64,000 nt of DNA from Bilabrum cf. latius (Eukaryota), in NCBI GenBank assembly GCA_965178125.1, contig OZ237743.1, positions 1,302,001 through 1,366,000 of the forward strand, given 5' to 3'. This document shows, piece by piece, positions 3,713 to 62,921 of the stretch; positions within the stretch are counted from its first letter, which is position 1; each line of letters starts with the position of its first letter. The notes under the pieces were generated by a model that ran no database searches, had not been told where the DNA came from, and saw nothing but the letters and a program-made list of their open reading frames with translations. The position numbers and the translations under genes are program-made.

Positions 3713-5232
3713 TCACTTGCCGCCTGCACCTCCTGTTGCTGCTGCTCCTCCTCCTGCCGACGCTTTGCTGTCGGGATTGCTTGCAGCAACTGCCTCACCT
3801 GCCCCCCTAGCGTCCAGGTTGCACCCGCGCCACGCCACCGACACCCCGTCCCAACCGCACGAAGCCACCGTCCCGGCGGCCCCCGCGAGAGGGCTCCACG
3901 CCACCGACCTCACGAACTCCTTGTGGTGCTAAAGGCGACCCAGCAACTTCCAGCCGACCGAGGGCACGTCACCCGCCGTGGGAACCGGATTCATCGGGGC
4001 GACTGCCGCGGACCCCCAGGCCCCACCCGCCCCCTTGCCCCCGCCCGTGCTCCCCCCACCTTCGCCCGCTGCCCACACGCACACCGCTCTGTCGTACCCG
4101 CATGTGAGCAGCCGACCTGCCCCCACTGGGTCCCACCGAACCTTCAGCAGGGCCAGGGTGTGCCCCCCCGAGAGCCTGGCCGCAGGGGCCGCGGGCCACC
4201 GCACGTCCCACACTCTCACCGCCGCATCCACGCCCGCGGTGGCGAGCAGCCCCGGCCTGTCCTGCCTCCAGTCGCAGCTCGTCTGCTCCACGCGGGGGTG
4301 CGAGGGAGCGGATCCCCCCCCCGCCCCCGTCCCCCTGCCCCCCAGTTGCAACCCCCCCTTGAGCCCCTCCCTGGGGTCAAGCACCAGGATGTCCCCCGCT
4401 TCCGTCACCGCCCCAAGCTGGCCCCCGGGGCCCCACGCGATCTCCTGCACCCCCTTCTTGGCCGAGCCCCCGGCCCTGCCAGCGGGGGCAACCCCCGCCG
4501 TTGACCCCACTCCGGGGCCAGCTCCCCCCGAAGGCACACCCCCTCCCCCAGGGGCCCCCGTCAGCAGGGGGGCCCGCAGCGAGGTGACGTCCCACAGGGA
4601 CAGCCGGCCGTCGCCCCAGCCGGTGGCGATCTGCGTGCAGGGGGCCGAGTAGCCCGAGGGACCGGGCCTCTGCCACGCAATGGCAGACATGTCGGCTGAC
4701 GGCCCAGGTGCGTGAGCAGGCGAGGGCGCAGGGGCTGCTGCGGCAGTCTGCGAGCCTGCTGTGGCTGCCAGAGGCAAGGACGGCGGGGCCAATGCTCCGA
4801 ACACGGCGATGGGACGGACGAATCCGTCCGGGGAAGGGACTGCCCGTCTATCGTAAAGCCGGGCGCTACCATCCATGCAGCTCACGACAGCCTGGTGAGG
4901 GCTGCATCTGCTCCATGAGAGCTGCGACACGCCAGCAGGAGACGCGAAGGACACGTCGACCTTGCCGCGCTTCGTGACTGGGTCTGTGCGAACGAAATCT
5001 AGCCTACCCCTGCCTGAAAGTCCAAAGTTTTCGGCCTGAGCAACTGCTATAGTGTTGTCCAGGAATGGGCTGAACGCAACCTGTGCAGAAAGAGGGGATT
5101 TGGTACAGTTCGAACTGGCACGGCCGGCGTTCGCAGCTTGTAGCTGGAGGGTCGAAGCCGCCTTGGCGGGATCAGGTGCATACAATATCTTACATCATTA
5201 CACGGGAAGCTGTGCAGTGTCCAGGAAGCCAT
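3713..5232 (-). CDS. PEX7: Peroxin 7 (PTS2 receptor, WD40); exons 5232-5194 and 5080-3713; one in-frame TAG at 3929-3931
   Basis: The spliced N-terminus DVAFSPFLDNTIAVAQAENFGLSGRGRL matches the PEX7 start. The last WD repeat (HHKEFVRSVAWS...ASCGWD) lies after the TAG in the same frame. Ends TGA. Confidence 0.85.
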
Positions 5233-5481
5233 AGGTAGCGCTTATTTCGTGCGATCTATGGCAGCCAGAGCTTGCGACCGCTGTGTGCAATCCCCGAAGA
5301 TGAAGCAATTAATTTTGGTGCAGTGCAACCGCACCAAAATTTGGGCGACCATGTCGTCCAATCGAGTTGAAGCTCCTCAAATATTCGAAAGTGTAAGTCG
5401 ATCGTCGCAGATCTGCGAACTTTGGTCTGAATTCCCAGCGTTGGGCCTGCTGCCGGTTGGCCGCACCGCAGGCATCCGTTG

Positions 5482-8400
5482 ATGGAATTGTTGCAACCCA
5501 AAGCTCTACATCTACATTCCTTCGCGCAGCGCGAGGCTTTAGTTGGGAGGGATCTCACGGATTTAGATCTGTAGGCGCGCCGCTTGGTGGCTAGGCAGGC
5601 TGCTGAGCGCGAGCGGCGCCGGTGGCGAGAAGCCGGCGATCGCGCCGCGGCCGCGGGGCTCGGTCCACCGAAATTCAGGGACCAGCAGGCTCTGGAACGA
5701 GGGACAGCCGCTGTTCTGAGCGGGGGTGGTACGCTGCGGCTGGGTGAGTAGAGCGATGCCTCCGCCTCCGCCTGGTCGGGATGGACCGCCCAGGGACAGG
5801 GGGGCGCAGGCAGCTCCGGGGACGGCCCCCTCCTTGGGGACGGCACTGGGGGCACCAGGCAGCCGGGGGCGCGGTCCAAGGAGGCGCTCGAGACGGTGCG
5901 GGATGCTCGCCGGGCCCGCGCCATGGAGAGGGGGGAGCTGCCCGAGGACCCAGCGCACGACAAGGACGAGGGCGAACTGGACGGAGGCACTGGCAGGACC
6001 GCTGTCTCGGGTGCATCGCACGGCGGTGCTGGCGCAGCGGCAGGTGCAGGGGTGGTAGGAATGTCCACTTCCTTGTCCTCCAAGTCGGTGCACGAAGCCA
6101 GTCGGAGGCATGGGTCCTCCGGGAGGCAGGCAGGCGACGAGGAGGACGAAAGGGGGCTGGAAGCTGGAGCGGGACTTGACATGGTGGCGGGGAGCACGAG
6201 GGAGAGGGGGGGAGAGAGGGGCAAGGAGGACGAGAGTCGGGAGCGGGACCATCGCAGAACCGTGTCAGTCGATTCGACAGCCGCGGAGGAGTCGGCCGTG
6301 GCAGCCGCGGTGGCTGCTGCCGGAGGGGGAGTTGGTGTGGGGCGCAACTATGGCCAGGTGCACATTGGGCCCGACCCCCCAGCGGGTCTCACACCCGGGG
6401 TCTTGGCTGCGGAGGAGGAACTGCTGGCAGCGACCACGGCCCCCGGGGCGGGCGTTCTGTCTGGTGTGGGGGCCAGGCACAGTAGGCGGGGGCGGGCCGG
6501 TGGAAAGCACGCGCGCAAGACGTCGGGAATCCACAGCCCGAGGGCGCGGGGGGCCAGGGGCGCGGCTTCGACGAGACTCCCTCAGGCTGGCGGCGGGGGC
6601 CCGTCGGGGATCGGAGACACGCGTGCGGAGGACGCACTCGTCACGCCTGACATGCGGCTGGGAGAGCTGTCCTCCGATCTGCACGCGCGGCGGCACGTGC
6701 TGAGCCAGCTGGTGGCCAAGGGCCAGTGGTTCGGCCCCATGCCTTCAAGGAGGGTCTGGGGGGACGAGGCTCTGGAGAACAAGGCCGCAGAGAGGGGTGC
6801 CAGCGCGCTGACGAGTGTGGCTTCAAGAGTGCGGCGGAGGATGCGCCTGCAGGGGCTGCGGCAGGGTGCGGCCATGCGGCTGCGCACCAGGGAGCCGAGC
6901 GCGCTGCAGTCGGCGAGGCACGCCACGGCGTCATCTTCCACCTCCCCTTCTCGGCAGCGGGGGGGCGGCAAAGACGGTGTGAAGGGCGATCCCGGGCCTC
7001 TGGAGGGCGGGAGGGGCAGCCTGATGGACGCCCTACCCAGGGAACAACGGAGGAGGCTCTTCGCTGCGGCTGCCAAGGCCATGGGCGGGGGTTAGGAGGG
7101 AGTGCCCCAGGGTGGGGCGGGGGGCACATGGGGCCTGCGAGCCAGGGAACTGGAGGAGGCGCAGGAGGGGCAGGGCAAGGGCGCCGCGAGAGGGGCGGGG
7201 TTCGGGAGGGCAGCCCGGCCGACGGCGCAGGCGGCCGCTGCTGTGCTGGGGCCGCGGCGGGCGGAGGGTAAAGGTGCAGCGCATGGTGGTGCGGCGGTAC
7301 CTGGGCGCTTTCCGCAGGGCCGGGAGAATGCTCTGAGTCGGGCGGGGGGACGGGTGAGTCGGAGCGGCGTGCACACCCCCTTCCTTCGATAGGGGCCGTC
7401 GGTTGGAGGGCTGGACGAGGGCGAGGGTGAAGGCGGGGGGCCGGGAGAGGGGGGCCATGGGGGAGATGATGTGCACGTGCATGTGCACAGGGAGGGTGAG
7501 GCTGGAAGGGACAGCAGGGGGTCCATGGGGAACACCATGGGGAACACCACTGGCAGGGCGGGTGCGGGCAGCCGGTTGGCAATGATGTGGAGGAGCAGCA
7601 AGAGCAGGGTCGCAGTGGGCGTTGCTGGCGAGTCCAGTTCTAGCCGCAGTGGCTTGCAATCACGGCTAGGGGGCGGCGGGAGCGGCCCTTCCACTGCAGC
7701 GCACGACGATGACGCTGACCCGTCCGGTGTGTCTCGTCTGCTGGAGGGAGTGCTGGACAAGAGCGACCGCAATGCGCTTGCAGCTGCTCTTGACCGGGCC
7801 CTACACGCAGAGCTGGACAGGGGCGGCAACTACGTGCCTCCCGCTCTGCCAAAGGGGACCCAAGGCACCGACGGCCAGCGAGGTGGGCTGATAGGCAGCA
7901 CCAGCACCCCCTCACTGGGTGCCGCTTCTCTGGGGGCCTCCTCTTCGGCTGGCAGGCTGCCGGGGCAGCAGAGGGTCAGGGGGGGGCGGGGCGCGCACGG
8001 TGGTTTCGGGCTGGCGGCGGCAGAGGAGGCCCGCGAGCTGAAGGAGGCCGTTGATACGGTGCACAGGCTGACTGAGGGAGCGAGGACCGACGGGCTGCCT
8101 GCTTCGGGGAGGAGGAGCGCGCTGCTCTCGGGGCAGTCCTCGCTGGCACTCAGCGCGGTGGACATGCTGACCTCCAGGGCCAGCTCCAGAAGGAGGCGTG
8201 CATAGGGGCACGGGCGTGTCTCTGCGGCTGCGGGGGGCAGGGGCTCAAGAGCGACGGGTACCGCGCCTGAGACGGCGGATTCAGGGGCGGCTGTGGGCAG
8301 CGCAGGGGGGCGCGGGTCCACTGGGCGGACTAGTGGTGGTTTTGGCGGGCTGCTGGCGAGTCGGATGGGGGGGCAGGGGCGGCGGGGGCACGGCCGGCCC

Positions 8401-11400
8401 CCCATGGACAAGCGGTCGAGTCGTCGCTTCAAGACGGACATCGCCAGCATGATTGCGCTGGGACTTGTGCCACCACAGGACGCGGGGGATGGGCTGGTGG
8501 CGCTGCAAGGCCCCCGGCCGGGTGTGGTCGACTCGCTGCGTAAGGAACAGAAAGAGGCGGCGAGGGCGGTGCGGCTGCTCGGCGCCAGCACCTCCTTTGT
8601 GTCTCCGCTGGGCACGGTGGTCAACACGGCCCGGCGCGCGAGGCAGGCTCGGCTGCTGGAGCTGCTCTACTGGTTCGGTATCGCGGGGGATGGTCGGTTG
8701 TTGAGCAAGGAAGAGCTTCGAGAGAGGAGGCGCCTCATCCGACAGGGTCAGCTGGAGGAGCCCAGCATGCCCTACAGGAGGGCAGACACAATCTCTGTGG
8801 CGCCCCGGGTTTTCGCCCCCAGCGGTGGCGCGGGCGTTGGGAAGGGGCCAGCTAACGGGGCGCGCAACGGACTGTCGCAGTCCACGAGCAAACGGGCGAG
8901 CGGGAGCAAACGCGGCAGCAGCGCGGCGGCCGGGGATGAGGGGCCTGGGAGCGGCTCGAGCGGCGGCACCCGCGTGCCCGGCCTGGATCTGGCTGCCCTG
9001 GGCGCCACTGGGTTTGCGAGCACCGCGGCGTCCCCGCCGGAGCAGCAGATCGGCAGTCAGACGGCTCGGCTCGGGCAGCGATCCAGTCTGCTGGGCGCAT
9101 CCACGCCAGGCAGCATCGCTGGGGATGCCAGCATGAGCAGGCGCAAGGCCAGGAGGAGGAAGACGAGGGTGTCTCCGGGCCGGGCGGCGCGGCGGGCCGT
9201 CGCGGCGCTGGCCACAGGCAGGGGCGCGGCCATCCACAGCGCGGCCGCTGCCCTGTCTCAGGAACTGTCCCTGTCCCCGCGGGCGGCGGAATACTCCGCG
9301 GTGCTGCCGTCTGCACGCTCAGGCGCGGCTCATCGGCGAGGTGGGGGGCAGCGATCCGCGGCCTCTCCGGGGATGAGCGGGTCCTTGAGCATGTCGCGGA
9401 GCAGGGTGGGGGCGGCTGCCAGCCCTGGCACCGTGGGGTCTCCGGGCACTGTCTCGGGTAGGCTCGGAGGGGCGAGCGGTCTGCTGTCAGCCCGCAGCGT
9501 GAGCGGTTCCTCTTCGATGGGTGGGGGGCCTCGGGCGCCTCGGAGGCGGCTGCGCGGGGGCAAGGGCGCCAGTGCGCTGTCTTTGGCCATCCAAGAGTCG
9601 GAGAGCCGACGCCTGCGCATGAAAACTGGGTCTGTGGGGGCAGCCGAGGCTATGCGGGTGCAGGCTGCCACGAGCATGGCGGCGGCTTCGGTGCTGGAGG
9701 AGGAGGGGGAGGGGGACGGGGGCATCGATGATGGCCGTGGGAGTGGGAGTGGCAGAGGGAGCGAAGAGGGGGGCACAGAACAGACCCACATGGACGAGGA
9801 GGAGGAGCTTCTGCTGATAGGGGCGGGGGAGGGGGCTGGAGACCAGCTGGATGCTACTGTCGTGCCACTGTCACTCATGGCGGAGGAGCGTGCTGCTGCT
9901 GGTGGTAGTGCCAGCGGGGCGCAAGACGCTGGGGCCACGCTGAGCTAGCTTGCGAGAGGAGAGGGACAGCCAGGGAGCAAGGGGAACCAGCTGCCCGGGT
10001 ACCTGGCCAAAGCCGCTTGCCTGGGCTTTCTGCGGGGAGACGAGGCGGAGGCGTGCGCGGGCCCCGCAAGCTCGGGGGCCTCCTGGGTGCTCGGGCAGGC
10101 GGACGCGGACGCCGCCGCGCAGGCGGAAGCATCCGAAGGCGGGCGAGAGGTGCATGCCATCGCCAGCCGGGATGGCGACCAGGACACGGAAGGGCACACC
10201 CCAGACTCTCGGAATGAGCGCAAGCACCTGGCTCGCATGGAGCTCGAGCGGATGCTGCTGGCCGGTAGGGCGGCACTGGCGCAGGCCACGGCCCGCTCCA
10301 GCCACGCGGCAGCCTCGCTGGGGCCCCCCGGCCGGATCAGCCTCGCGCTGTGGCTGGATGGGTCGGGGGGGCAGGGGGCGTTGGAGGGCGGGAATGTGTC
10401 CGTTGGGTTCGCGGCGGTGGCCAGCGATGAGCCAGAGAGTCCACGGGTGGCCTGGGAGGGTGCGTCTGCGCTGCTTGCGGCGGCGCTGGGGCGTGCGGCT
10501 GACTCGGCGGGACAGGTGCTCTTTGGGGGCATTGTCGGGTTGGTGCGCGGGCTCGGTGCCCTGCAGCCACAAGCGTAGGGGCAGGGACAGGGGCAGGAAC
10601 AGGAACATGGACAGCACGGTGCGTCTGCCCGTGGTCTCGGCTCTAGGGGCGTTGGAGCTGCCCAAGGTGCGGGCCCCCTGCAACAGGGTAGTGCAATGCA
10701 CCGAGCTGCGATGGAAGAGGGGCTGGTGCTGGGCGAGGGGGAGGGGCAGCGCGTGCTGCGACCCACTGAGGATTCGGGAAGGGATGCGGCGGGGCAGGAG
10801 CTGGCACTTGGAAGCTCCGTGGGCCCCAGCGGCGAGGTGGGCCTGATGCAGCCCTCTTTGGCCACCTTGGACTCGCAAGAGTTGCAAGGGGGCGATCCCG
10901 TGGGCTTCCACGACGAGGCAATCGCATTCGCCTCGCAGCCCAGACTGCTCATGAGCCCGCCCCCCGTGCGGCCGGACCAGGACGCCTCCACAGGTGGACG
11001 AGTCGGTGCTGACGCCACCCCGCACAGGACCGGAAGAGGGTCTGTCGGGTTCGGTCCCGCGCCTACCCCCCGCAGCTCGTAGGCAGCAGCAGCGGTGGCT
11101 GGGCTGGTGGCTACGCCTCGTTAGCTGCTGGCTCTGCTAGTTGTGTGTGACCTTGCGATCGACAGGCGGGGCCTCGCGCAGCTGAGCCCCCGGAATGTGT
11201 ACGGGCCAGTGGCTCTGTCGAGTGTGGCGCAGGCCGCTCTGCAGCAGCTTGCAATCGAGGCGAGAGGGGCCAGCAGGGCTGAGAGTGGCACAGCGGGCGA
11301 GGGCGAGGGGGAGGGCGAGGGCAAGGGCAAGGGAGACGGCGAGGAGGAGGGGGAGAGGAGGGGGCAGCTCGTGTCCAGAGGGGGTGGGTCCAGAGGGGCG

Positions 11401-14400: not shown

Positions 14401-15660
14401 TGGTTTAGACACCTCCTTCGCGTGCTAGTCTCGCAGCAGGCGCCGGGTGACGTGTCCCCCGCCCAGCGCTTGATCGTGCACCGGCTGGCACAGGCCCTCC
14501 GCATCAGCTCCACGCACGGCTCCAAGGCTCGCATCGCAGCCTCGGCGCACCCGCGGAAGCTCCCTCTGACCCTGCTGGGCGGACTGCTGGATGCCTTGGA
14601 GCCGCAGGAACTGGTTCTCCCCGGCGTGCAGCTGACCCTGGCGTTCCTGCGGCGCGCCATGGCTGTGCCCTTGCGCGTGTGGACCGCCATGCACGCAGCG
14701 AGAGGACAGCCCCCACCGTGTGAGGCAGTGCTGCAGCGGCTGTACCTGGAAAAGGAGAGAATCGCTGCGGAGGCGGCGCGAGGTGCATCTGCCGGAGCCA
14801 TGGGGAAGTCCAGTGCAGGTGTTGCAGCCGTGAAGGACGCAGCCCCTGTGGCAGGGGCATTGCCTTCAGCCCGGGGCCAGTGGGGGGCACAGGAGGACGG
14901 CTGGGCGGCGAGGGAGACAGGGCGGAGGCTCCTGTCGCTGCTTGGGGAACAGGGGCCGGCCATCGACCTGTCGCCGGGCAAGCAGGGCAAGAGGGGCAGT
15001 GATGGGAGGGAAGGCAAAATCGCGGCAGGGTTCGGGTTCACCGGCAGCAGCGGTCGCGGGGCCATTGCTGGACATTCGCTGCAGGCCTCCACCTCCCCTA
15101 TCGGCGGTGCAGCGAGCACGAAACAACCGGCAGAGGACCTGCTGCATCGCACTGGGAGTGCCGCTCCTCGAGACATCCACAGCGAGCTGCGCGCGCGGCA
15201 GGCCATCCTGCAGGGTGCCGCCAGTGGTGAAGCCCGCGCCATGGCCGCCAAGCCGCCCTCTCCCGCCCTCCTGCTGCAGCGCGAGTTTGACGCCTTCTAC
15301 GACGCCCTGCCCAAGGTGCCCAAGATACTAGCTTCACCGCTCAAGCAGAGGCAAGCGGGTGCAGGCAACGGCGGTGCAGACGACGCACGGCCCGGCCCGC
15401 CGCCCCGACCAGGGATAAATGCAGTGCATGCAGGTGCAGGTACAGGTACAGGTGGCTCGAGCCGGGACTCGCCCCCCGTGCCGGCCCGGCGGCAGGGGAT
15501 CCTGGACAAGCTGGGGCCCGAGGACCGGGCGCTGCTCCCCAGGGCACTACGGGAGGAGCTGGACGGGACTGTACTGCGGCGGGTGAAAGAAGAGATCGGG
15601 CTAGGGGGGCACTTGCTCGGGGAAGAGGTACAGGACCGTGAGGGTGCGGGGGCCTCGTGA
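5482..15660 (+). CDS. Giant (~3,390 aa) low-complexity Gly/Ala/Arg/Ser-rich hypothetical protein; 9 in-frame TAG; true start uncertain (a short upstream exon from ATG 5351 is possible)
   Basis: Supplied ORFs 5896, 7102, 7471, 8293, 10087, 10696 and 11143 are all in frame +1. They are separated only by TAG (5572, 5749, 7093, 7390, 8203, 9946, 10576, 11080, 11122). The first TAA/TGA is the TGA at 15658. Confidence 0.75.
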
Positions 15661-20945: not shown

Positions 20946-21089
20946 GCTTTGGCTAAATGGCGTATGCTTGTGCTATGGTTGGACAGTGCGTGAGGTCGCC
21001 AAGTTGGTCGCAATCCCGAACCGGAACTAACGAAACACCGTGACCGATTGCATCAATTTGCTCAATTACAACAGGTCGGTTTCAAATGT

Positions 21090-52070: not shown

Positions 52071-52354
52071 GGATTGAGCTATAAGCCAGCAATTAGTTGC
52101 CAAACGGGCAGGATCGTTTGCTTTTCTTGCTCGCGATTTTGTGTGCTCGTAAACACACACAACTTAAATTATCTGGTTATTCACAGGCAGTCCTGAGTCT
52201 GCAACAAACTGGCTCAAGGCTGCTCTTTTTGGTGAGTTTTCTTGTATCTATCGCAATAATCGGTGTATCGCTATTGTATTACAGACCAGCATGGCACAAA
52301 TGCTCCCGCTGTACTCTTCCAACCATGCAGTACCGCTGCCAACTGTAAAGGGCA

Positions 52355-55300
52355 ATGTCAGGGAGTTTTCCTCCTGAACCGTTGTCCAAACAAGCTGCGT
52401 GGCTCCAGTACCCCCCAAGAGGCGTTGTATCAGCGGCTGCCCTCCAGTCAATCGACTTGGATGCTGGTGGTGCTGCTGCTTAGCCAGTCCCAGGACCCGC
52501 ACGCTTCCTTCAATTCAGCAGAAATTCACGTGGAGCTGCTGGTGCAGCTCTAGATGATGACCCTGACTCTATCGTGCGATCGTGGTCACGGGCATCTCCA
52601 GAAACAGCCGGGGAAAAGCACGGTGCTGCCTTAGGCCAACAAAGCATGAGCAGCGAGCATAAGGGACCTGCTCCTGTTGCACGTAACGAGCCTGGTATCA
52701 GCATTGATGGTGATTTGGTACTAGCATTGGAGCCAAGTGGGTCCTCCAACACGGCTCGATGGGACAAGGAGAGGCGTCGAGCTGCACTTCTCGGGCCAAG
52801 ACCGCAGGACAGACCGAAGCGGCGCTCGATGCTGGACGGCAGCTCCAGCTCCAGCTCTAGCTCAGAAAGTGACGATGACGACGATGGCGAGGATCGACTG
52901 GACCCTGGGAGTGACGCTCGCGCTGCAATGGAGGCCGCAAAAGATCAGGATTCCCAGGGGCAGTCAAACTTTGACCTAATGATGCAGCTACCAAGCGAAT
53001 TCCGTCGCATGCTCTACTAGCTTGTAGTCTGGCCGTGGTTCGACCGAGTGGTGCTGATGCTTGTCTTTGTCAATTGCATATTCTTGGCATTGGACCGCCC
53101 CGGGGTAGACCCCGACTCTGCGCTAGGCCAGGTCATCGCGACGTCTGACCTTGTGTTTGTGATCATCTTTGCAGTGGAGTGCGGCATCAAGCTGGTGGCC
53201 CTGGGCATCATGAGGGAACCGGACGGGTACTTTAGGAGCGCGTGGAACTGGCTGGATTTCCTCATCGTGATAGAGGGGATTGTCAGCACCAGCACGGACG
53301 GGGACGGACAGCTGAGCGGGCTGCGGGCCTTCCGCGTGCTTCGGCCTCTCAAGACAGTGTCCAGGCTGGAGGGGCTCAAGGTCCTCGTGAATGCGCTGCT
53401 GGCGTCGCTACCTATGCTGTGCAATACTCTCATCGTTTGCGGGTTCTACTTTGTTATTTTCGGGATCGTGGGTGTTCAGATTTGGCGAGGACTCTTCGTG
53501 CAGCGGTGCTTCATGCGAGACTCTGGGCTGCTCGACCCAGAGGACGAGCGGCTGTGTGGCGGCATGCACCAGTGCCGGCAGGAAGCATTTTGCGGTGAGT
53601 GGACCGAAAATCCAGCTGAAGGGGTGGTGTCCTTCGACAACATCCTGTGGGCGTGCAGTACCATCTTCGCCTCGATCACGCTGGAGGGGTGGGCGCAGGC
53701 CATGTACGACTCCCAGGACTCGGGCGGGAGGTGGAGCTGGCTCTTCCACGTGCTCATGATCGTGTTTGGCGCCTTCATTTTGATGAATCTCACGCTTGCC
53801 ATCATTCTGACCAAGTTCCGAGACAGTGTAGAGGAGCAGGAGCGGGACAAGGTGCGGGCTCAGCTCTTGCAGGAGAGGAAGGCTCTCATGAAGGCGCGCA
53901 TCATGCGCATGCGGAGGGAGAGAGAAGCTATGCGCGCGCAGCAGGCCATAGGGGCAGTCACACAGACCGCCAGTCTCAAACTTGCGCAAGCTGCCAGCAG
54001 AGCAAAGGCAAGAATCGCCAAGTCGGCTTCACAGCGAAGTGCGGGCAAGGACGGCCGACCGAGCGATGGAGAAGCCCACCCGCCATCCATTGCAGCCCCG
54101 ACCGGTCCATCTGCCGTGCATACCGAGCAGCTCTCCGTCGACCGTCTGGGTCCTGGCATCGATGCAGGCTCGATCGAGATGACTGCTGCGGGCAGCCGAG
54201 CAGCAGGGTCGGGTAGGCCCGGCTCCGCCTCCCCAGAACACGACGAGAACCAAGGGGAGGACCCCAACATGGACTTCTAGCTCGACGGGGCTACCGCTGG
54301 CCAGGCTCGTTCGAATGCCCATGTGGGGCTTGGTGCGATCAGCAAGCGCTCAAACCTGGGGGGTACTGGACGGGCTACCGCGGACCAGTGGGTGCGTGGC
54401 GAGAGGAAGGTGCGGTCCAGCGGGGAGGAGGAAGATGTCGAGGGGATGCTGAGCGACTATGATGAGTATGGTGACGACTCGGACGACGACGACGAGGACG
54501 GCGACGGGCTATTTGGCGCTGTCTCGTGGTGCTGCGTTGCTGCTTGGCAAGGCCTTCTTGCGGCGACTGCGTGCGTAGATGCTGCAATATGGGCGCCCAT
54601 CCGGGAAGTTGTGGGTCCCGTCGCCACGCATTCATGGTTCGACAGCGCTATCCTGGCTTGCATCGTGCTCAACACTGTAGTGCTGGCCATTGACCACCAC
54701 AACATGGACGCAGAGCTGGAGCGGGGCTTGGCCACCGCCAACATCATATTCACCTTCATTTTCGTCGGAGAGATGGTGCTAAAATGGCTGGGGCTAGGCC
54801 TCTACGTGTACTTTTCGGAGGCATCCAACACGTTCGATTTTGTCATCGTGGTGCTGTCTCTAGTGGAAGTGGGACTCGGGGGCTCGTCTTCATTCGCTGC
54901 CTTCCGGACTGTCCGGCTCTTCCGAGTCGCTCGAGTGGCCAAGTATCTGAAATCAATGAAAATGATCATCGATGTGGTGGGGCGATCGCTGGAGAGTTTC
55001 GGATACATCGCTTTGCTGCTGCTCCTGTTCTGCTTCATCTACAGCGTGCTAGGCATGCAGCTATTCGGTGGTGCGTTCGATGAGTCCGTCGCACTGGGTG
55101 AGGAGCTTCCGCGAAACAACTTCGACACACTGCTGTGGTCTTTCGTGACAGTGTTTCAAATCCTTGCTGGAGAAGCCTGGAATGAGGTCATGTACAGCGT
55201 GGTGGGTGCAACAAGCCCCATCTATATACTGTACTTCATCTCGTGGGTGGTCATCGGTCAGTTCATCCTGCTGAACCTGTTCCTTGCAGTTCTGCTGGAC

Positions 55301-58300
55301 AACTTCTCGCAGTAGGAGGAAGAGGACGAGGAAGAACTGGAGAGGGAAGCGCTGCACAAAGTAGAGCATGCGTCCTAGATCCAGCAAGGCGACGGCATAC
55401 CCGGTCGGGAGAGCCCTGTGAGAGTGACAGCTCTCGCAGATGCCACCGGGATTCAGGCTGCAAACGAGTAGACTCGGCGGGCAAGGGTCGTGCAAGCAGA
55501 AGAGAGCCAGTCTAGGCATGCCGAAGAAGACTTGTTGTGCGGGTAGAGAGCTTCTCGAGCGCTGTGCTTCCCTGCCCGAATGCTATGCAATGCTTGTGGC
55601 AATCCCAGCGCCATGGACGACGCCCAGTCTCGCATGGCGTCAGCTGCATCAGAGCGACTGCGAAAGCAACGACGATCTCGCAAGGTGAGACAAGCACTTG
55701 AGAAGGCGGCAAAATCCCGTGCAGCCAAAGTCTCAAACCGCTTGGAAACGGCACGGCTGTCACTGGGTAGCCTTGGATTCATGCGGCCCCGGTGTGAAGT
55801 GGCTCTGATGGCCATGTTGCGGCCTCTGGAGCCAGGTGCGCTGCAGGAGTATGCTGTGCAGCAGGCCCAGCAGAGCGGGCTGGCCGAAGATCATGGCCTG
55901 GACGGGGTTGGGCTCGTAGCAACCAGCAGCGCGATAGCAACTGCGGCACACTCCCATGCGGCTCAACCGGATACGTTTGGCAGTGGGCAAGCAGCGGGGG
56001 CTTAGCACAGTGTGCAGCGAGAAGCCTCGGAGCGCTCCAAGATCTCGGCCATGTCCAGCGAAGGGGAGGTGGGTGTGTCGCTTCCCGAAGCCTCCGTGCG
56101 TCTATCCGAGGTCATGCTGCGAGAGCTAGTGTACTTGCAAGCGGAGAAGCGTATCAGGGCGATTCGGGAGCGAAAGCAATAGATTGTGGAGGCCCAAGCA
56201 GGCTTGATGCCTGTCGATAGTCCATCCGCAGTTGCTGCTGTGGAGCAGAGCCAAGCCGGGAGAGGACCGAGCGACCCCCGGGTAGACCGGCAACGCATGT
56301 TCCGGGCTGCATCATCTCCTGCCATGCAGCGAACTCTGTCGAAGATCAGCCCGCTGCAGAAGGTTCTGCTGGAGGTCGAGGACGCGCTCCCACCACTGAA
56401 CAGGCTGGACGCCATCCGAATGGCCAATCTAGAGAGGGTCATGAGCGGCAGGCCCAAGGTGGTCCTAAAGCCTAGGCTGCCCATCACACTCGCGTACGAG
56501 CTTGGATCCAGCACGCAATGGGCACGATAGCTGCAGCCAGACCGCCCCATGCTGCTAGATGTGCCCCAGGACGAGCACGACCGGCGGCTCGTGGTGTGCA
56601 TGAACGTTGTCCGCAAGTGGCGAGATTTCATGGGCGCTCGCAGGCCAGCGCCTGCGAATGAGGAGGCGCAGGTGAAGCTTGCTGAAATCGATGCCGTGCG
56701 TCGCATTCGAGCACATTCTGCGATGTCAGCTGGAGTCTCTCCGCTCGGCGAGCGTCAAGCAGCGAGTCGCAATGGTGGCTAGGACTCTCCGGTCGTCCGT
56801 ATCGCAGCGGGCAGCGGCGAATCGAATGATAGCCCATCCGCGAGTCGGGGCAGTCAGAGCCATGCTGATTCGAACGCGGTACTGGTGGATGCTGCAAATC
56901 TGGACCAAGCTCTGGAGTTTGGCGAGATCAATTATTATGGAGGACAGGAGGCGCCGGGCTAGCCGGCAGCCGACGCTCAGCTTCCCTCAACGCAGGCACG
57001 AATGGCTGCACTGACGTGCGTCGATGCTTGGGAGCACGTGCTAGCCCGCTCGCTGGGCCTCCTCGTGGACCGCCGGATCAACCCCGCTGACGCAGACCTC
57101 TCAGATGAGCGAGAGATTGAAGACGGCATCTTGTTGCCGAGAGAGGCGCCACCACCGGAGTCCCCTGCATCCGCACCTTCAAAGCCAGGCGGTGGCGGCG
57201 ATGAACCCGATCCAGACTTGCCCGAAGCTCTGGAAGCGTTGATGCTGGACGACGAAACCGCGGAGCGGCGCATCTTCATGGAGTACCAGGGCAACCACGT
57301 GTGCTGCGTGCCGCGGCACAGCTACCTTGCGAAGAGCATGCGGTACTTCGTGGAGCACCCTTTCACTGTGTGCACCATGCGGGGGAAGCCCTGGAACATA
57401 ACGTTCGATGGCATCGTCCTCGTCCTCATCATCATCAGCTCGGTTCTGCTGGCATCCGAGCCTCCGCCAAGGGACGGAGTCACGCAACCTGGTGTGGGGG
57501 TCAACTCCACCGGGGGCGATGCACTGGACCCCTCACAGCCGCTGGTTGCGCTAGAGATCGTGTTTACAATCCTGTTTACCGCTGAGATTGTCATAAAGGT
57601 GCTTGCGTATGGGTTCCTGTTCGCTCCTGGAGCCTACCTGCTGTCTGCCTACAACGTGATCGATTTCCTGGTTGTGGTGGCATCCGTGCTGAATCTGTCG
57701 CTGACTCAGTACAACTTCGGATTTTTGCGGACACTGAGGCTCCTCCGCACATTGCGGCCTCTGCGCGTGATCAGCAGGAACGAGGGGATGCGCGTGGTCG
57801 TGAGCGCCCTCATCTCGAGTGTAGGGGGCATCGTGAACGTGGCCGTCGTGGTACTGCTCGTGTGGCTCATGTTTGCAATCCTGGGCGTGCAGCTGTTCTC
57901 AGGCCGCATGGGAGACTGCAATGACCCTGACTTCCCGGCTGGTGCCCCTCGAGAGGGCGTACTGGTGCAGCCAGGCAACTCTTCCGCGGGGTACGTCGTG
58001 GACCCATGCGGCCCAGGAGTATTCTTTACGGACGAGTCGGGTGAGCGCGCTGAGCGCGAGTGGGTCACGCCAGATCAGAACTTCGACAACGTATTCAACG
58101 CCATGCTCCTGCTGTTCGTGACCAGCAGTGGCGAGGGGTGGCCAGACGTGATGTTTCGCACGGCTGACGTGACCGGCGTGGAGAAACAGAGGGAGAGGGG
58201 TGCGAGCGCAGTCGCGGTCCTGTACTTCATCGCCTTTATCATAGTGGGGTCATTCTTCTTCTTGAACCTGTTCGTCGGCGTGGTGTTCGACAACTTCATG

Positions 58301-60904
58301 CGGCTGAAGAAGGAGTACGACTCGGCAGGCTTCTTGACGGACGGGCAGAGGGACTGGGTCGGGTAGTAGAGGAAGCTCGCGAGGGCCAGCCCCGAAGCAA
58401 TGACTCGAATGCCATCCGACACCAAGGCAAACGCGTGCCGCCGTCAGGTCTTCTTGCTAGTGAACAGCAGCTGGTTCCGGTGGGTCATCATCGCGTGCAT
58501 CAGTCTGAACATCGTCGCGCTTGGGATCAACTATGCCGAGGAGAGCGATGGGTACGCTCTTGCACTGGAAATCATAAACTATGTCTTCAGCCTGGTGTTT
58601 CTGGCAGAAGCCATCCTTAAGCTATATGGCATGGGGGTGGACCAGTACTTCGTGTCGCCGTGGAACCAATTTGATTTCGTGGTTGTGCTGGGCTCGATCG
58701 CCGACGTGATTTGCGCCAGCATCAACTTCCCGCTTGGTGTACTCCTGGCTAGGATATTCAGGATCATGCGCGTCCTTCGCGTCGTGCGACTAGGCAAGGA
58801 GATCAACAGCTTGCGGAGGCTGATCCTCACCCTATGGGCGGCAATCCCCTCCCTGATCAACGTGGGGTCCCTGCTGCTGCTGCTATTTTTCATCTACGCA
58901 ATCATGGGCGTGCAGAGCTTCGGGCACATAACCCTTGGAGAGTCTATCGATGCCCACACCAACTTCTTTAACTTCACGAACGCTCTCCTGACCCTGTTCC
59001 GCATCTCGACCGGAGAGGGCTGGGAGGGCATCATGTTCGACTGCATGGTGGAGGAGCACGGCGGAGCTGCGATCGCTCCGCTGTACTTTGTGAGCTTCGT
59101 GACCATTGCTTCGTTCGTTATGCTCAACCTTTTCATCACCATCATCGTGGACGAGTTCGAGCAGCAGGAGCAGGAGTCGGCGGGTATGACGGAAGGGCAC
59201 CTCCGCGCCTTCAACATGGTGTGGAAGTTCTTCGACCCGGCGGGGACTGGTCGCATCCCGGTGGCATACCTCGAGCCATTCCTCCGTCACCTGCCGCCCC
59301 CCATGGGCATCTCCACTCCTCAGGACGACGAGGACGCCTTGAATGCCGCTCGCAGCGAGGCTGCTTCCGACAAAGGGGGCCAGCGCTCCCTGCAGGCCCT
59401 GGAGATGAAGCGGGACCGGGCCACATTTTAGGCATTCCTGGCGCGCCTCAAGCAGCTGGACCTGACCTCGTACGAGAGGCACGTGCACTACAGCGAGCTG
59501 CTGCTGGCGGTGCACCGGACCAGCTTCGGCTCGGACATCCCCGAAGAGGTCATGGCCTCGCTGGGGCTGGACCGGGCCCGCATCCGGGCCAAGATCGAGA
59601 AGAAGGCCCTGAGACAGGCTGCTCGCAGGCGGCTGCTCAAGCAGTACGCGCAGGCAGCGGGTGCGTCCTAGAAGGAGGCCTCCGCGATGGTGCGGGCCGC
59701 GGAGGAGCAGGAGAGGAGCGACGCGGGGCTGGATCCCGCCCCGCCCGCGCGGAAACGTGGCGGCATAGGCAAGGCAGCTGGCGGCAAGAATCTCAAGAAG
59801 AAGGGAAAGTCCAAGGCCACGCTTGTGCATAAGGTTATGGCGGACGTGGCAGTGTTTGCAGCTGGCAGCGATGTGCGCCAGCTGGAGGACATGGTGCAGG
59901 TACGCACGCAGAAGCACAGCGTGGCCGAGCTGATGGCCTCGGTAGCCATCGTGAACGCGTTCAGAGCCTGGAGGAAGCGCATCCGGAGGCAGGCCAAGCT
60001 CAGGGCGCAGCACGAGGCAGCCGTGCGGAGAGCTGTGGTTGCCATCGCGGGGTCGGAGTCTGCGGCCGTCGCGTCGCTGGCTGGGTCTCCGAGCCCTAAG
60101 CGGGCAATCTCGCGCGGACTTTCCAGGGGAGGCGTGGCGTCGTCTGCGGCATCGGGTGCGGCACTTGCTGCCGACAAAGTGACTGGTAAGCCGCCAGCTG
60201 TACCCCGGGACAGCAAGATGGGCGCGGGCTCGGTGGGACGCGACCGAGGGACGTGGGGAGGCCAATCTAAGCAAAGGTCAGACGAACTCCCGGCCTCCTA
60301 GGCCAGTGCTGACCCAGAGCTTGGTGGGCCTGCGCAGTCGCGCCCTGCCGCTTCTGCAGCTGCGAAACTGGTGAGGAGCAGCACCAGCAATGGCTCGCCG
60401 GCCCAACCGCAAGCGAAGAGTGCCACAGCTCAAGCACCTGCACCGGCACCTGCACCCGCGCCGGCACCTGCACCTGCACCTGCACCTGCACCTGCACCTG
60501 CACCTGCACCTGCACCTGCACCTGCACCTGCACCTGCACGTGCACGTGCACATGTCCCAGAGTCCGCACGAGCTGGGCGGCAAGCATCTGAGTCTCTGGT
60601 AGCCAGTCGTTCCGGGCATAGCGATGATGCCGGGGGTCGCCTGGAGCAGCAGGACAAGAGCTTCTCAGGTGCCATGGTTGAGGACTAGGGTGACAGGCAG
60701 TCATCGGAAGTATCGGGTACAAGGAAGGCAAAGAAGGCGTCCCGTCCCAAACTTACGCCGGAGGAACTGCTGGCTAGGACCGAACGTGCCTTGGAGGCAG
60801 TCATGCGCCTGAAGAAGCACAAGAAAGTTGGCAGCCAAGCGCGTGGTGGCTCCAGCGAATCAAAGCTTGCAGGTGGAGAAGCAAGCAACACAGGTGGTCA
60901 ATAA
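52355..60904 (+). CDS. Four-domain voltage-gated Ca2+ channel alpha subunit (EEEE filter), intronless, ~2,850 aa; 18 in-frame TAG
   Basis: Four S1-S6 repeats with Arg-rich S4s. Pore motifs TLEGW, AGEAW, SGEGW, TGEGW. C-terminal EF-hand-like WKFFDPAGTGRI and IQ-like IVNAFRAWR. All pieces are in frame +2 separated only by TAG. Ends TAA 60902-60904. Confidence 0.93.
60433..60550 (+). repeat. (GCACCT)n hexanucleotide microsatellite encoding a Pro-Ala run in the channel C-terminal tail
   Basis: Directly visible tandem gcacct units. Confidence 0.9.
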
Positions 60905-61047
60905 TGTTATATGAATCGTAATACCGTTTGTTGTTATAACTAATGTAGAGCGCGATAGCTGCGTTCCATTCCGATTCCGCAGCATTCGCGAGAGCAAACC
61001 AAACTACACTCCATCCCTGGTCTATTAGCATTTTAGCCTCTGAAGTG

Positions 61048-62016
61048 ATGAATAAACCAACCGCTGGAGTTCAAGAGGTCTAGCGAAGACGGTGGGATAA
61101 AGATGAGTACGAGAGGCGAGCGGCAGCACGCCGAGAAGGCCTTGAACATCTGGCCACTGATGGGGAGTGGCATGGAAAAGACAGAGCCGACAAACTTGCT
61201 GCCGCAGAAGAGCTCATTGGGAATCAGGCTCGCAGTGAGGTGGACGCTGATGCAGACAAGCTGCAGGAGAAATCTATATCGGTATTGAGCGCTGGCCCGA
61301 ACGCGCAAGGTCCAGCGATGAGCAAGAGGGCATGGCTCAAGAAGCGCGACTTTGACGTAAGCGTAGACAATAGAATAGGATAGCGCTCCATAATTACGGC
61401 TGGGGCAGTAGGCGTGCACGGCGGAGGATTCTACTGCCCGGTTACAAAGGTCACTCTGAAGGATTCCCAGTCCTATCTAGATCACATCAATGGCCGGAAA
61501 TATCAGAAAGCACTTGGTTATGGAATGCGGGCAGAGCGATCAACAGCGTCTGATGTTCGATCGAAACTGAAAAGCCTTCTGGAGCCGAAAGCGGGAGTGG
61601 CAACGGCGGCACCTGCTGAATCAGCAAAAGAAAGGCGAAAAAGGAAGAGAGAACAGCAGAAAGCAGAGAAAGCACGAGACAATGGGTTAGGTGGGATGAT
61701 GGATGCGCAATCAATTGCACAGCAGCTGGGTCTGGCAATGTCTCAGCAAGGCGGTGCAAATGCTGGACAACCGGCTAGTGCAGCTAGCATACAGTCACTG
61801 GCTAGTTCCGAGTTGGACTCTGAGCCTGCAGCGAAGAGGCCCCGAGTGGGTCCATCCACGCAAGATAGTCAGGCGGACCCGGGCTAGCTCGGTGACGGTC
61901 CCTGGGAGGCGGAGGGCAAGTTTGCTGGTCTGGACGAGGTGCCCGAGGCTGCCATCGACTGGCAGCTGGCACGGGCCATGGGGGTCGAGGTTGCATCGCT
62001 AGGTATGGAACCATGA
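61048..62016 (+). CDS. ZMAT2: ZMAT2/Snu23-like spliceosomal protein; 3 in-frame TAG (61081, 61381, 61885)
   Basis: [TAG]RRRWDKDEYE...LKKRDF...GGFYCPV...KDSQSYLDHINGRK.QKALG..MRAERST...LARAMG; ends TGA. Confidence 0.85.
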
Positions 62017-62068
62017 TTGCGCGCCTGTGCAGTCCCACCCAATTCATTCACTGGCAGTCGTTCCTGTA

Positions 62069-62921
62069 TCAGCCCTTTTCACCAGCCACCTGCTCACCAC
62101 CATCCTTCCCGGGTGCCTACTGCTGCTCAGCTCTCCTCCGCTTCCACATGGCCACTTCCTCCTCGTGCCGCGCTAGAGCCAGCTGCCTCTCCTCCTCCTC
62201 GGTGAGGGGCGCCGCACTGCCGTCCAGAGAGCGAGCCCCGGAACCAATGCCGTCGGCTCCCATCGCAGCGCCACGGAGGGCGCGCTGCAGCCTGGCTCTC
62301 GCAGCCATCTGTGCCTCCTCGATTGCTCCGCTGTCTTTATCCTCATAGAATCTTCGGATTCCCATTGCTGTGTTGATCTGCTGCCGGCGACAAGTGAACC
62401 AAATCACTGACAGCATTCCGAAATATGTTGCGAACCCCCAATTCCTTGTTCGAATAAGACAGCCTGCTGACATGCAGACAGATCGAAAGCAGACATGAAT
62501 GCGCTATAATCAAATGGGGCAAATTACTCAATTAGCCTAGTCGATTGCCACACTCACCTCCAGATTCCTTGAACCGGTGTGCTGCCATTAGTATGCCGCA
62601 CCCTGTTGCCCAAGAGAAGGCCTCAATTGCACATTTCTCCTAGTGAAACGTTCGTAGGCTTTCCATATAATCATTCCATGAGCCCCTCAGTCCTCTGCGG
62701 ACCAGTTCAGACCAGGTCGTTGGCTACGCAGACATCTGCCTCTTCTCTTTCAGCCCTTGCACGTACTCTGAGAGATCTTCGCTTATTTCTCCCTGATCGC
62801 TTCCTATTTCAATTTCTCTCGAGGCGTCACAAGCTGCTTTTCCGCGAGTACCGGCCACGAGGAGACCCGCTGATGCCACAGCGAACTGTACTCGACGAAT
62901 GCGCAAACACCGTGCCAGCAT
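62069..62921 (-). CDS. COX20: COX20-like cytochrome c oxidase assembly factor; intron 62557-62464; 3 in-frame TAG (62724, 62640, 62117)
   Basis: Presequence-like N-terminus; KCAIEAFSWATGCG...HRF...RNWGFATYFG..VIWFTCR fits the two-TM Cys pattern of COX20; ends TGA. Confidence 0.62.

What the first reader, a model, noticed from the sequence alone, without database searches (positions are those of the whole stretch)
3713..62921. Non-standard nuclear genetic code: TAG is a sense codon (probably Gln) while TAA and TGA remain stops
Seen in sequence: 18 genes on both strands are split into same-frame ORF pieces whose only interruptions are TAG, about 87 by hand count (Ca channel 18, GT41 16, giant protein 9, PIF1 5, formin 4, etc.). 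I found no internal TAA/TGA and no frameshifts. TAGs fall inside or between essential conserved parts: PIF1 motif Ia (27295), before the last PEX7 WD repeat (3929), inside FH2 (30425, 29429) and PH (32317, 32170), in the channel III-IV linker (58364/58367), in the ZMAT2 N-terminus and in the SelJ-like core. Established: most eukaryotic stop reassignments recode UAA and UAG together, and UAG-only recoding is known from few lineages (e.g. the fornicate Iotanema spirale UAG=Gln, a rhizarian with UAG=Leu, some phyllopharyngean ciliates). Inference: this GC-rich, non-ciliate-looking flagellate genome may be an independent, possibly undescribed origin. That would need a tRNA with a CUA anticodon and an eRF1 that no longer reads UAG.
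Basis: partly seen in the sequence, partly recalled or inferred. Interest (0 to 1): 0.97.

Follow-up and report, generated by a model that had tools for sequence, protein, structure and literature searches.

The report
TAG read as glutamine in flagellate
In this protist's nuclear genes the stop codon TAG serves as an ordinary codon for glutamine while TAA and TGA still end genes, a rare change of the genetic code that I could not find reported for this branch of life.

Summary
With only TAA and TGA as stops, 21 long frames open on both strands. They carry 97 in-frame TAGs, about 86 of them in credible coding parts. A four-domain calcium channel has 18 (Ion_trans E 5e-239).

Off frame, TAG is only 27.6% of stop triplets.

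Contigs of four public runs carry the same letters. Two behave like RNA, with spliced GT..AG introns and a poly-T end, and keep 26 of 27 coding TAGs unchanged.

A syntenic metagenome contig from a related species (L001, about 73% nucleotide identity) shows the same TAG-only pattern: 22 TAGs in its channel gene.

Codon pairing between the two species identifies the amino acid. In well-aligned columns there are 3 TAG-TAG pairs, and 20 of 34 other partners are Gln codons. Gln beats the next candidate by 55 log-likelihood units. Six ortholog pairs end at TGA or TAA at the same aligned place.

In a channel tree the pair is sister to a clade holding Cafeteria roenbergensis. Nine literature searches found no stramenopile nuclear code change.

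The code pattern itself is known (NCBI table 15). tRNA-Gln(CUA) and eRF1 could not be examined because no genome is held.

The parts
52349..60904 (+). Four-domain voltage-gated Ca/Na-type channel gene. 2851 codons, 18 in-frame TAG, no TAA or TGA, ends at TAA.
   Evidence: Pfam Ion_trans, 4 stretches, E 5.3e-239. TAG positions. An RNA-like contig of run X5 covers 52330-60424 with 0 other letters and holds 17 of the 18 TAGs. The ortholog in L001 has 22 TAGs.
32749..37698 (-). GT41-like (TPR plus glycosyltransferase 41-like) gene. 1649 codons, 16 TAG, ends at TAA.
   Evidence: No direct Pfam, PDB or word-index hit. HMMER on its last 1200 residues found 1003 relatives at E<=0.001. 7 of the 8 that I tested carry Pfam Glyco_transf_41 above the cut-off.
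5431..15660 (+). Giant low-complexity ORF. 3409 codons, 9 TAG, ends at TGA.
   Evidence: No Pfam family. Chance of no TAA or TGA about 1e-20.
26152..29124 (+). PIF1 helicase gene. 5 TAG, one in motif Ia at 27295. Ends at TAA.
   Evidence: Pfam PIF1 E 5.9e-37. PDB human PIF1 E 7.7e-106, where the TAG aligns with T of GGTTLH.
29195..32544 (-). Formin gene: PH exon (32020-32544 frame) and FH1/FH2 exon (29195-32008 frame). Joined by a predicted intron, 32067 to 31964. 2 TAG in FH2, and 4 in the PH frame of which 2 lie after the first ATG.
   Evidence: Pfam FH2 E 6.5e-54, PH E 1.3e-5. Intron is inferred only.
3713..5194 (-). PEX7-like WD40 gene. 1 TAG (3931-3929). Ends at TGA.
   Evidence: Best PDB hit is the peroxisomal targeting signal 2 receptor, E 6.3e-23. 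WD40 in Pfam.
60940..62016 (+). ZMAT2/Snu23-like zinc-finger gene. Probable start ATG at 61048. 3 coding TAG (61081, 61381, 61885). Ends at TGA.
   Evidence: PDB ZMAT2 E 4.8e-18. An RNA-like contig covers all 3 TAGs.
50379..52032 (-). AP-3 mu subunit gene with no TAG. TGA stop at 50589-50591, poly(A) site at 50379, RNA-supported intron 51886-52032.
   Evidence: Pfam Adap_comp_sub E 7.5e-61. Poly-T loose end and CT..AC joint. The ortholog ends at the same residue with TAA.
48825..50235 (-). ADP-ribosylglycohydrolase (SelJ-like family) gene. 1 TAG (49541). RNA-supported intron 49884-50028. Ends at TAA.
   Evidence: Pfam ADP_ribosyl_GH E 9.1e-12. Spliced contig in X5. The ortholog has 3 TAGs, all aligned to the window's CAG.
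41556..43097 (+). Membrane protein with Cu/Zn-SOD-like domains and a TSP1 domain. 1 TAG (42132), shared with the relative (TAG-TAG). Ends at TGA.
   Evidence: Pfam Sod_Cu E 1.5e-20. Pairing.
39069..41344 (+). Coiled-coil gene in two frames (exon 1 to about 39419, exon 2 frame from 39479). 2 TAG in exon 1. The relative has 3 TAG in exon 1 and 7 in exon 2.
   Evidence: Ortholog alignment is 73% identical in exon 2. Exon 1 homology ends at a GTAAGT.
46847..48682 (+). Conserved gene of unknown family. 2 TAG. Ends at TAA.
   Evidence: Ortholog in L001 with 10 TAGs. RNA-like contig 46780-48256.
37668..38885 (+). RDD-domain membrane protein gene. 2 TAG. Ends at TGA.
   Evidence: Pfam RDD E 9.5e-6. 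Ortholog in L001.
43115..45178 (+). Gene with a faint leucine-rich-repeat likeness. 3 coding TAG (44378, 44582, 44621). Ends at TAA. Absent from the syntenic place in L001.
   Evidence: RNA-like contig 44001-45009.
22988..26233 (-). WD40-containing low-complexity gene. 5 TAG. Ends at TGA.
16171..18675 (+). Orphan ORF. 834 codons, 6 TAG. Ends at TGA.
   Evidence: No family.
19008..22532 (-). Two paralogous orphan ORFs: 19008-20768 with 2 TAG and 21090-22532 with 6 TAG. Both end at TGA.
   Evidence: Shared N-terminal motif, BLASTP E 4e-12. Counts.
62463..62556 (-). RNA-supported 94-nt GT..AG intron of a minus-strand gene.
   Evidence: CT..AC joint in runs X5 and X7.

Best explanation
The window is nuclear DNA of a GC-rich, intron-poor heterotrophic stramenopile related to Cafeteria. 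In it UAG has been reassigned from stop to glutamine, while UAA and UGA remain the only terminators. This is the pattern of NCBI table 15.

Shown: TAG is in frame in real, expressed, conserved genes. TAG is exchanged with CAG/CAA between two species. Genes end at TGA or TAA.

Inferred from established knowledge (Panek et al. 2017, PMC5304391, passages read): decoding needs a tRNA-Gln with anticodon CUA, which pairs with UAG but not UAA, and an eRF1 that no longer recognises UAG efficiently. The change predates the split of the two species, because both use TAG and 3 TAG positions are shared. It postdates the split from the Cafeteria lineage.
For: (1) TAG is the only interruption. 97 TAGs and no TAA or TGA in 21 long frames, although TAG is only 27.6% of off-frame stop triplets. 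The chance of no TAA or TGA in the channel frame is about 1e-26.

(2) The frames are real genes: Ion_trans x4 E 5e-239, FH2 E 6.5e-54, PIF1 E 5.9e-37, PEX7 PDB E 6e-23, ZMAT2 PDB E 5e-18.

(3) RNA-like contigs keep 26 of 27 coding TAGs in 44001-64000 with 0 other letters. These contigs (run X5) have a poly-T end at 50379 and two CT..AC joints that the DNA-like run X1 bridges unspliced; a third such joint, 51885>52033, stands in X7 alone.

(4) A second species, L001, is syntenic at 67-76% nucleotide identity and shows the same pattern: 49 TAGs and no TAA or TGA in 7 orthologous frames.

(5) Amino acid. In columns with at least 6 of 10 identical flanks there are 3 TAG-TAG pairs and 34 TAG-other pairs. 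20 of the 34 partners are Gln (before the exon-1 pair was added: 16 CAG and 3 CAA). Gln's own conservation under the same filter is 0.71. Gln leads Glu by 54.9 log-likelihood units, and Gln is best at every flank threshold from 0 to 8.

(6) One TAG of L001 sits in the domain II S6 motif LGM-X-LFGG. There 120 homologues have only H (79), Q (39), R (1) and S (1), and the six closest all have Q.

(7) Six ortholog pairs end at the same aligned place with TGA or TAA.

(8) The neighbour-context model also ranks Q first, weakly.
Against: 14 of 34 well-aligned partners are not Gln (E 4, A 2, R 2, and D, V, H, T, I, L once each). This is about what Gln codons themselves show, but it leaves room for some noise.

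Frames were defined as TAA/TGA-bounded, so 'no TAA or TGA inside' is true by construction. The weight rests on their length, their homology and the off-frame rates.

The tool labels X5 'RNA? (probably DNA)' and X7 'RNA?'. That they are RNA is my inference from the joints and the poly-T end. Contigs drop rare variants.

No tRNA was found in the window or in L001, and no eRF1 or genome was available.

At deep homologue columns of the window's channel the TAG positions are variable and say nothing.

Lineage rests on one single-gene tree and on hit lists.
Confidence: 0.92

Rival explanations
1. Ambiguous code. UAG is mostly glutamine but still terminates some genes, depending on context, as UAA does in Blastocrithidia or all stops do in Condylostoma.
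For: Nothing here rules it out genome-wide, because only about 20 genes were seen. In L001 the coiled-coil gene has a TAG 13 codons before its TGA, in a stretch that aligns poorly with the window.
Against: All 6 ortholog pairs with alignable C-termini end at TGA or TAA at the same place, and no homology stops at a TAG. Of the 19 frames, 12 end at TGA and 7 at TAA.
Confidence: 0.06
2. Very efficient readthrough by a near-cognate tRNA-Gln(CUG) with a weakened eRF1. There would be no dedicated tRNA(CUA), so this would be leaky termination rather than a formal reassignment.
For: No tRNA(CUA) has been seen. Near-cognate tRNA-Gln readthrough of UAG is described in canonical-code organisms (PMC13192750, abstract in the search listing).
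Against: With 18 and 22 TAGs in one channel gene, full-length protein needs nearly complete decoding at every site. TAG makes up 9% and 22% of Gln codons in the two species, and TAG sits at a conserved Q of S6.
Confidence: 0.04
3. TAG encodes another amino acid (Glu, Leu, Lys, Tyr, Ser or Trp).
For: Glu is the second most frequent partner, 4 of 34. UAG=Leu, Ser and Glu are known elsewhere (PMC11687900, Discussion passages).
Against: Gln leads every other residue by at least 54.9 log-likelihood units at flank>=6 and by at least 27 at any threshold tried. The context model puts E, S, W and Y far below Q.
Confidence: 0.02
4. Artefact: pseudogenes, systematic C-to-T base-call error, or TAGs removed by editing or splicing.
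For: None found.
Against: The same letters stand in contigs of four studies; only three places differ in 20 kb, none of them at a TAG. RNA-like contigs keep the TAGs. A second species has its own TAGs, mostly at different places, in frames conserved at 53-82% protein identity. Deamination-type errors would also create TAA and TGA, and none is seen in frame.
Confidence: 0.01

Closest known systems
Iotanema spirale (Fornicata) nuclear code: UAG=Gln, UAA and UGA stop (Panek et al. 2017, PMC5304391; abstract and passages read)
   Same: Same codon table: UAG alone is reassigned to glutamine, and UAA is kept as a terminator along with UGA. Also a free-living heterotrophic flagellate outside the ciliates.
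   Different: An unrelated supergroup (Metamonada against Stramenopiles). Iotanema uses UAA as its primary stop, whereas here TGA is the commoner (12 TGA, 7 TAA). Iotanema's eRF1 has a T32G change in the GTS motif; the eRF1 of this organism is unseen.
NCBI translation table 15 ('Blepharisma nuclei': TAG=Q)
   Same: Translating the window with table 15 gives the same reading.
   Different: The table is a formal description only and says nothing about lineage or mechanism.
UAG-only reassignments in ciliates: Protocruzia tuzeti and two phyllopharyngean lineages (UAG=Gln), other phyllopharyngeans (UAG=Leu) (PMC11687900, Discussion passages read)
   Same: UAG is decoupled from UAA, and Gln is the new meaning in several of these lineages.
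   Different: Those are ciliates, a group with many code changes. The window's organism groups with Cafeteria and has ordinary GT..AG introns and poly(A) ends.
Rhizarian exLh (UAG=Leu) and Scotinosphaera (UAG=Ser) (PMC5304391; PMC11687900 passage)
   Same: UAG-only reassignment with UAA kept as stop.
   Different: A different amino acid. Leu and Ser are rejected here.
UAR=Gln codes (hexamitin diplomonads, oxymonads, ulvophytes, Amoeboaphelidium, many ciliates; PMC11687900 passage)
   Same: Glutamine is the new meaning. The presumed route is a mutated tRNA-Gln anticodon.
   Different: In those codes UAA is reassigned too. Here TAA never occurs in frame and ends 7 of 19 frames.

Membership tests
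UAG-only to Gln nuclear code (table 15 pattern) | In-frame TAG inside conserved, homology-supported nuclear genes | tested here: met
   18 in the channel, plus PIF1, FH2, PEX7, ZMAT2 and others. Same in the second species, L001.
UAG-only to Gln nuclear code (table 15 pattern) | TAG positions correspond to glutamine in relatives | tested here: met
   20 of 34 well-aligned partners are Gln. Gln leads Glu by 54.9 log-likelihood units. At the S6 column Q and H make up 118 of 120 homologues, and the six closest all have Q. Deep columns at the window's own channel TAGs are uninformative.
UAG-only to Gln nuclear code (table 15 pattern) | TAA and TGA never in frame, and both used as terminators at homology-anchored ends | tested here: met
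   No TAA or TGA in frames of up to 3409 codons, against an off-frame rate of about 0.019 per codon. Six ortholog pairs end at TGA or TAA at the same aligned place.
UAG-only to Gln nuclear code (table 15 pattern) | TAG present unchanged in mature mRNA | tested here: met
   26 of 27 coding TAGs in 44001-64000 lie in spliced or poly-T-ended contigs of run X5 with 0 other letters. This is contig-level evidence only, and the RNA nature of the run is inferred.
UAG-only to Gln nuclear code (table 15 pattern) | tRNA with anticodon CUA and glutamine identity | not testable with these tools
   No genome is held. No tRNA in the window or in L001. No Rfam match in the window.
UAG-only to Gln nuclear code (table 15 pattern) | eRF1 N-domain altered so that UAG is not recognised | not testable with these tools
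   eRF1 is not in the window or in L001, and I had no permitted query sequence.
UAG-only to Gln nuclear code (table 15 pattern) | Peptides with Gln at UAG | not testable with these tools
   This needs proteomics.
Stramenopiles, Cafeteria-related (bicosoecid-like) | Protein phylogeny places it with named members | tested here: met
   In the channel tree of 31 rows, (window, L001) is sister to (P0005, (P0004, Cafeteria roenbergensis)) with SH-aLRT 100. The 20 best-scoring named AP-3 mu hits are all stramenopiles (oomycetes, ochrophytes) at 38-46% identity; animals and amoebozoans follow lower in the list. This is one gene, with sampling limited to the hit lists.
Stramenopiles, Cafeteria-related (bicosoecid-like) | 18S rRNA or multigene phylogenomic placement | not testable with these tools
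   No rRNA in the window and no genome.

The most novel reading that the evidence does not exclude
This is the first non-canonical nuclear genetic code in stramenopiles. It is an independent UAG-to-Gln reassignment (UAA and UGA kept) that arose in a Cafeteria-related clade after its split from the Cafeteria lineage. At least two species share it, and they differ in G+C (63% and 56%) and in TAG's share of Gln codons (9% and 22%). That would offer a young, tractable pair for studying how UAG is uncoupled from UAA, in a group whose relatives can be cultured.
Probability: 0.7. Interest if true: 0.85.

Novelty: new member of a known kind. Interest (0 to 1): 0.8.

Why it matters
Changes of the nuclear code are rare, and UAG and UAA nearly always change together. 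Each independent case where UAG alone becomes a sense codon tests which changes in eRF1 and tRNA are needed to tell the two codons apart (Panek et al. 2017, PMC5304391).

A case in stramenopiles would add a major eukaryotic group to the list. Here it comes with a second species and a standard-code sister lineage for comparison.

It also has a practical side. Gene callers using the standard code will cut this organism's genes into pieces: the channel gene falls into 19. That affects annotation, phylogenomics, and every metagenome or culture data set in which this flagellate occurs. Its sequence was found in runs of 8 studies under several organism labels.

Tried and rejected
- Whole genome: none is held for this window. 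No tRNA(CUA), eRF1, 18S or Codetta-type survey was therefore possible.
- ARAGORN found no tRNA in the window or in L001. Rfam found nothing in the window.
- Deep-homologue columns for the 18 channel TAGs were variable and uninformative (120 hits). The PIF1 motif Ia TAG aligns with T of human PIF1. The two alignable ZMAT2 TAGs align with F and K, and the PEX7 TAG with T. None of these identifies the residue.
- The neighbour-context model ranks Q first, but only by 1.6 log units over M. Its control is leave-in and so optimistic.
- The paralogue pair 19008/21090 aligns only at the N-terminal motif, away from the TAGs.
- The first metagenome scan, with the channel protein, picked low-complexity peptide patterns and found no relative. 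The second, with P0125, gave L001.
- The listing of cluster members gave no organism names for 10 unnamed hits.
- AP-3 mu tree: I mistranslated the window's row (frame error, end branch 8.6), so that row is void. The relative's protein P0125 falls among unnamed sequences, apart from the oomycete plus ochrophyte clade and from animals and amoebozoans. This names no lineage.
- GT41-like ORF: no direct hit in Pfam, in PDB or in the word-index search of proteins of 906-2886 residues. It was supported only indirectly.
- RNA: no RNA holder is listed on record. The RNA nature of X5 and X7 is my inference.
- Parts of the 20-kb stretch without listed RNA-like contigs are not evidence of silence.

Full report
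**What is there.** The window is eukaryotic nuclear DNA with 62.6% G+C. Under the standard stops its genes fall into pieces. With only TAA and TGA as stops, very long frames open on both strands. In 19 such frames I counted 95 in-frame TAGs among 17,479 codons, beside 558 CAG and 169 CAA. Twelve of these frames end at TGA and 7 at TAA. Adding two more genes gives 97 TAGs in 21 frames.

**How many TAGs are coding.** Eleven of the 97 are probably not coding:
- three lie upstream of the ATG at 43115, in a stretch that overlaps the SOD-like gene in another frame;
- four lie beyond the point where exon 1 of the coiled-coil gene stops being conserved;
- two lie upstream of the first ATG of the PH exon;
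- one lies upstream of the ZMAT2 start;
- one lies upstream of the first ATG of frame 62874-63749.

**The frames are genes.**
- Pfam finds four Ion_trans domains in the 2851-codon frame (E 5.3e-239). It also finds FH2 (E 6.5e-54), PIF1 (E 5.9e-37), the AP medium-subunit domain (E 7.5e-61), and RDD, PH and WD40.
- Pfam further finds ADP-ribosylglycohydrolase and Cu/Zn-SOD domains.
- PDB searches confirm PIF1 (E 7.7e-106), ZMAT2 (E 4.8e-18) and the PTS2 receptor PEX7 (E 6.3e-23).
A full HMMER scan with the last 1200 residues found 1003 relatives, and 7 of the 8 that I tested carry Glyco_transf_41 above Pfam's cut-off.

**More than chance.** Off frame in the same stretches there are 594 TGA, 262 TAG and 94 TAA, so TAG is 27.6% of stop triplets. 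Yet every in-frame interruption is TAG. From the local off-frame rate, the chance that the channel frame lacks TAA and TGA is about 1e-26. For the giant ORF it is about 1e-20.

**Not an artefact, not edited, not spliced out.**
- Thirteen listed runs from 8 studies hold at least part of the channel gene. I laid four of them, from four studies, on 44001-64000.
- Run X1 gives long contigs that run through introns and between genes, so it behaves like DNA. It may be the window's own source.
- Runs X5 and X7 behave like RNA. Their contigs start and stop near gene ends. X5 has a 24-T loose end at 50379, about 210 nt past the TGA of the minus-strand AP-3 mu gene.
- Three joints skip 145, 147 and 94 nt with CT..AC ends, which are GT..AG introns of minus-strand genes. 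X1 bridges the first two unspliced, in a single contig covering 48523-60424.
- The tool itself calls X5 'RNA? (probably DNA)', so the RNA reading is my inference.
- One X5 contig covers 52330-60424 with no differing letter. In all, 26 of the 27 coding TAGs in this 20 kb lie in such contigs.
- Only three single-letter differences were listed in 20 kb across the four runs, none of them at a TAG.

**A second species.**
- The AP-3 mu search returned one protein 98% identical and one 85% identical, P0125. Scanning the metagenome contigs with P0125 gave locus L001, 17,820 nt.
- L001 is collinear with window 38210-58776 in reverse orientation, at 67-76% nucleotide identity. It has 55.9% G+C.
- It shows the same pattern. 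Its partial channel frame has 2061 codons with 22 TAGs and no TAA or TGA. Six other orthologous frames carry 0 to 10 TAGs each.
- TAG makes up 22% of Gln-type codons (TAG+CAG+CAA) in L001, against 9% in the window's orthologous frames.

**Which amino acid.**
- I aligned eight orthologous segments with X at TAG and paired the codons. 67 ungapped columns hold a TAG.
- With at least 6 of 10 identical flanking residues and no gap, there are 3 TAG-TAG columns and 34 TAG-other columns. 20 of the 34 partners are Gln. The rest are E 4, A 2, R 2, and D, V, H, T, I, L once each.
- Under the same filter Gln itself is conserved in 71% of columns, so TAG behaves like a Gln codon.
- I scored the partners with a substitution table taken from these same alignments. 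Gln beats the next residue (Glu) by 54.9 log-likelihood units. Gln is best at every flank threshold from 0 to 8, by at least 27 units.
- There is also a check independent of the window. A TAG of L001 sits in the S6 motif LGM-X-LFGG of channel domain II. There 120 homologues have H 79, Q 39, R 1 and S 1, and the six closest all have Q.
- Weaker lines agree or are silent. A neighbour-context model ranks Q first by a small margin. Deep-homologue columns at the window's own channel TAGs are variable.

**Terminators.** Six ortholog pairs end at the same aligned place, with TGA or TAA in both species. AP-3 mu, for example, ends ...FQIRA with TGA in the window and TAA in L001. No homology ends at a TAG. 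A context-dependent stop role for some TAGs cannot be excluded from about 20 genes.

**Lineage.**
- The best named channel hit is Cafeteria roenbergensis, 51% identity.
- I built a quick IQ-TREE tree of 31 rows: the window, L001, and 29 of the 120 listed hits. These were the 21 best plus P0026, P0031, P0033, P0036, P0039, P0046, P0051 and P0081; 91 hits were left out.
- In that tree (window, L001) is sister to (P0005, (P0004, Cafeteria)). Both groups and their union have SH-aLRT 100.
- Those three proteins were called as uninterrupted products of 2691-3106 residues, so they have no in-frame TAG in this gene.
- The 20 best-scoring named AP-3 mu hits are all stramenopiles, at 38-46% identity; animals and amoebozoans come lower in the list.
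- My AP-3 mu tree is void for the window's row, which I mistranslated.
- The placement as a Cafeteria-related stramenopile therefore rests on one gene and on hit lists.

**Mechanism.** Shown: UAG is decoded, as glutamine, at nearly every site. With 18 to 22 sites in one gene, anything less gives no full-length channel. The rest is inferred from what is established for such codes (PMC5304391, passages read). A tRNA with anticodon CUA reads UAG but not UAA, which is why UAG alone can be captured. eRF1 must also lose or weaken UAG recognition; Iotanema has T32G in the GTS motif. Neither molecule could be looked at here.

**Comparison and novelty.**
- The table is that of NCBI code 15. The same pattern is known in Iotanema spirale, Protocruzia tuzeti and two phyllopharyngean ciliate lineages (PMC5304391; PMC11687900, Discussion passages).
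- UAG-only changes to Leu (rhizarian exLh, some ciliates) and to Ser (Scotinosphaera) also exist.
- Nine full-text searches found no nuclear code change in any stramenopile. In two papers that hold both 'bicosoecid' and 'genetic code', the passages concern other matters.
- The library holds only Creative Commons PMC papers and bioRxiv, so an unseen report is possible.
- I file this as a new member of a known kind: a known code pattern in a new, major lineage, with a second species in hand.

Noticed in passing
window 45335-46668: High-copy element. Contig depth there is about 1074 and 179 in run X1, against about 12 elsewhere, and it is also raised in X5, X6 and X7. An ORF on the minus strand (45594-46538) holds an internal duplication of about 50 residues and matches no Pfam family.
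   Followed up: partly
window 43100-46850 versus L001 11626-11956: The orthologues of the SOD-like gene and of gene 46847 are about 330 nt apart in L001 but 3.7 kb apart in the window. The extra DNA holds the gene at 43115-45178 (faint leucine-rich-repeat likeness only) and the high-copy element. This is an insertion in the window's lineage or a loss in the relative.
   Followed up: partly
window 49884-50028, 51886-52032, 62463-62556: Three RNA-supported spliceosomal introns of 94-147 nt with GT..AG ends, all in minus-strand genes. Genes are otherwise nearly intron-free. Two more introns are predicted: formin 32067 to 31964, and the coiled-coil gene after about 39419.
   Followed up: partly
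window 19008-20768 and 21090-22532, minus strand: Two neighbouring orphan genes share an N-terminal motif (LPLEMPEYEG.LGH..DLT) and a C-terminal coiled stretch. They match no known family.
   Followed up: partly
window 41556-43097: An unusual architecture: a membrane-anchored protein with two Cu/Zn-SOD-like domains and a spondin-like TSP1 domain. It is conserved in L001 at 54% identity.
   Followed up: no
window 1-4000: Lower G+C (0.547) than the rest of the window. It holds a lipocalin-like ORF at 1509-2066 (Pfam Lipocalin_10, E 7e-7).
   Followed up: no
window 50589-52028 and L001 6453-7823: The best-conserved gene of the region, AP-3 mu (82% identity), has no TAG in either species. The less conserved genes carry most of them. 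The coiled-coil gene's exon 2 has 0 TAG in the window and 7 in the relative.
   Followed up: partly
runs: The channel gene's sequence is held, nearly whole, by runs filed under four different coded organism labels in four studies. Small shares occur in runs labelled protist and algae metagenome. The flagellate may be a frequent companion or contaminant of other cultures.
   Followed up: no
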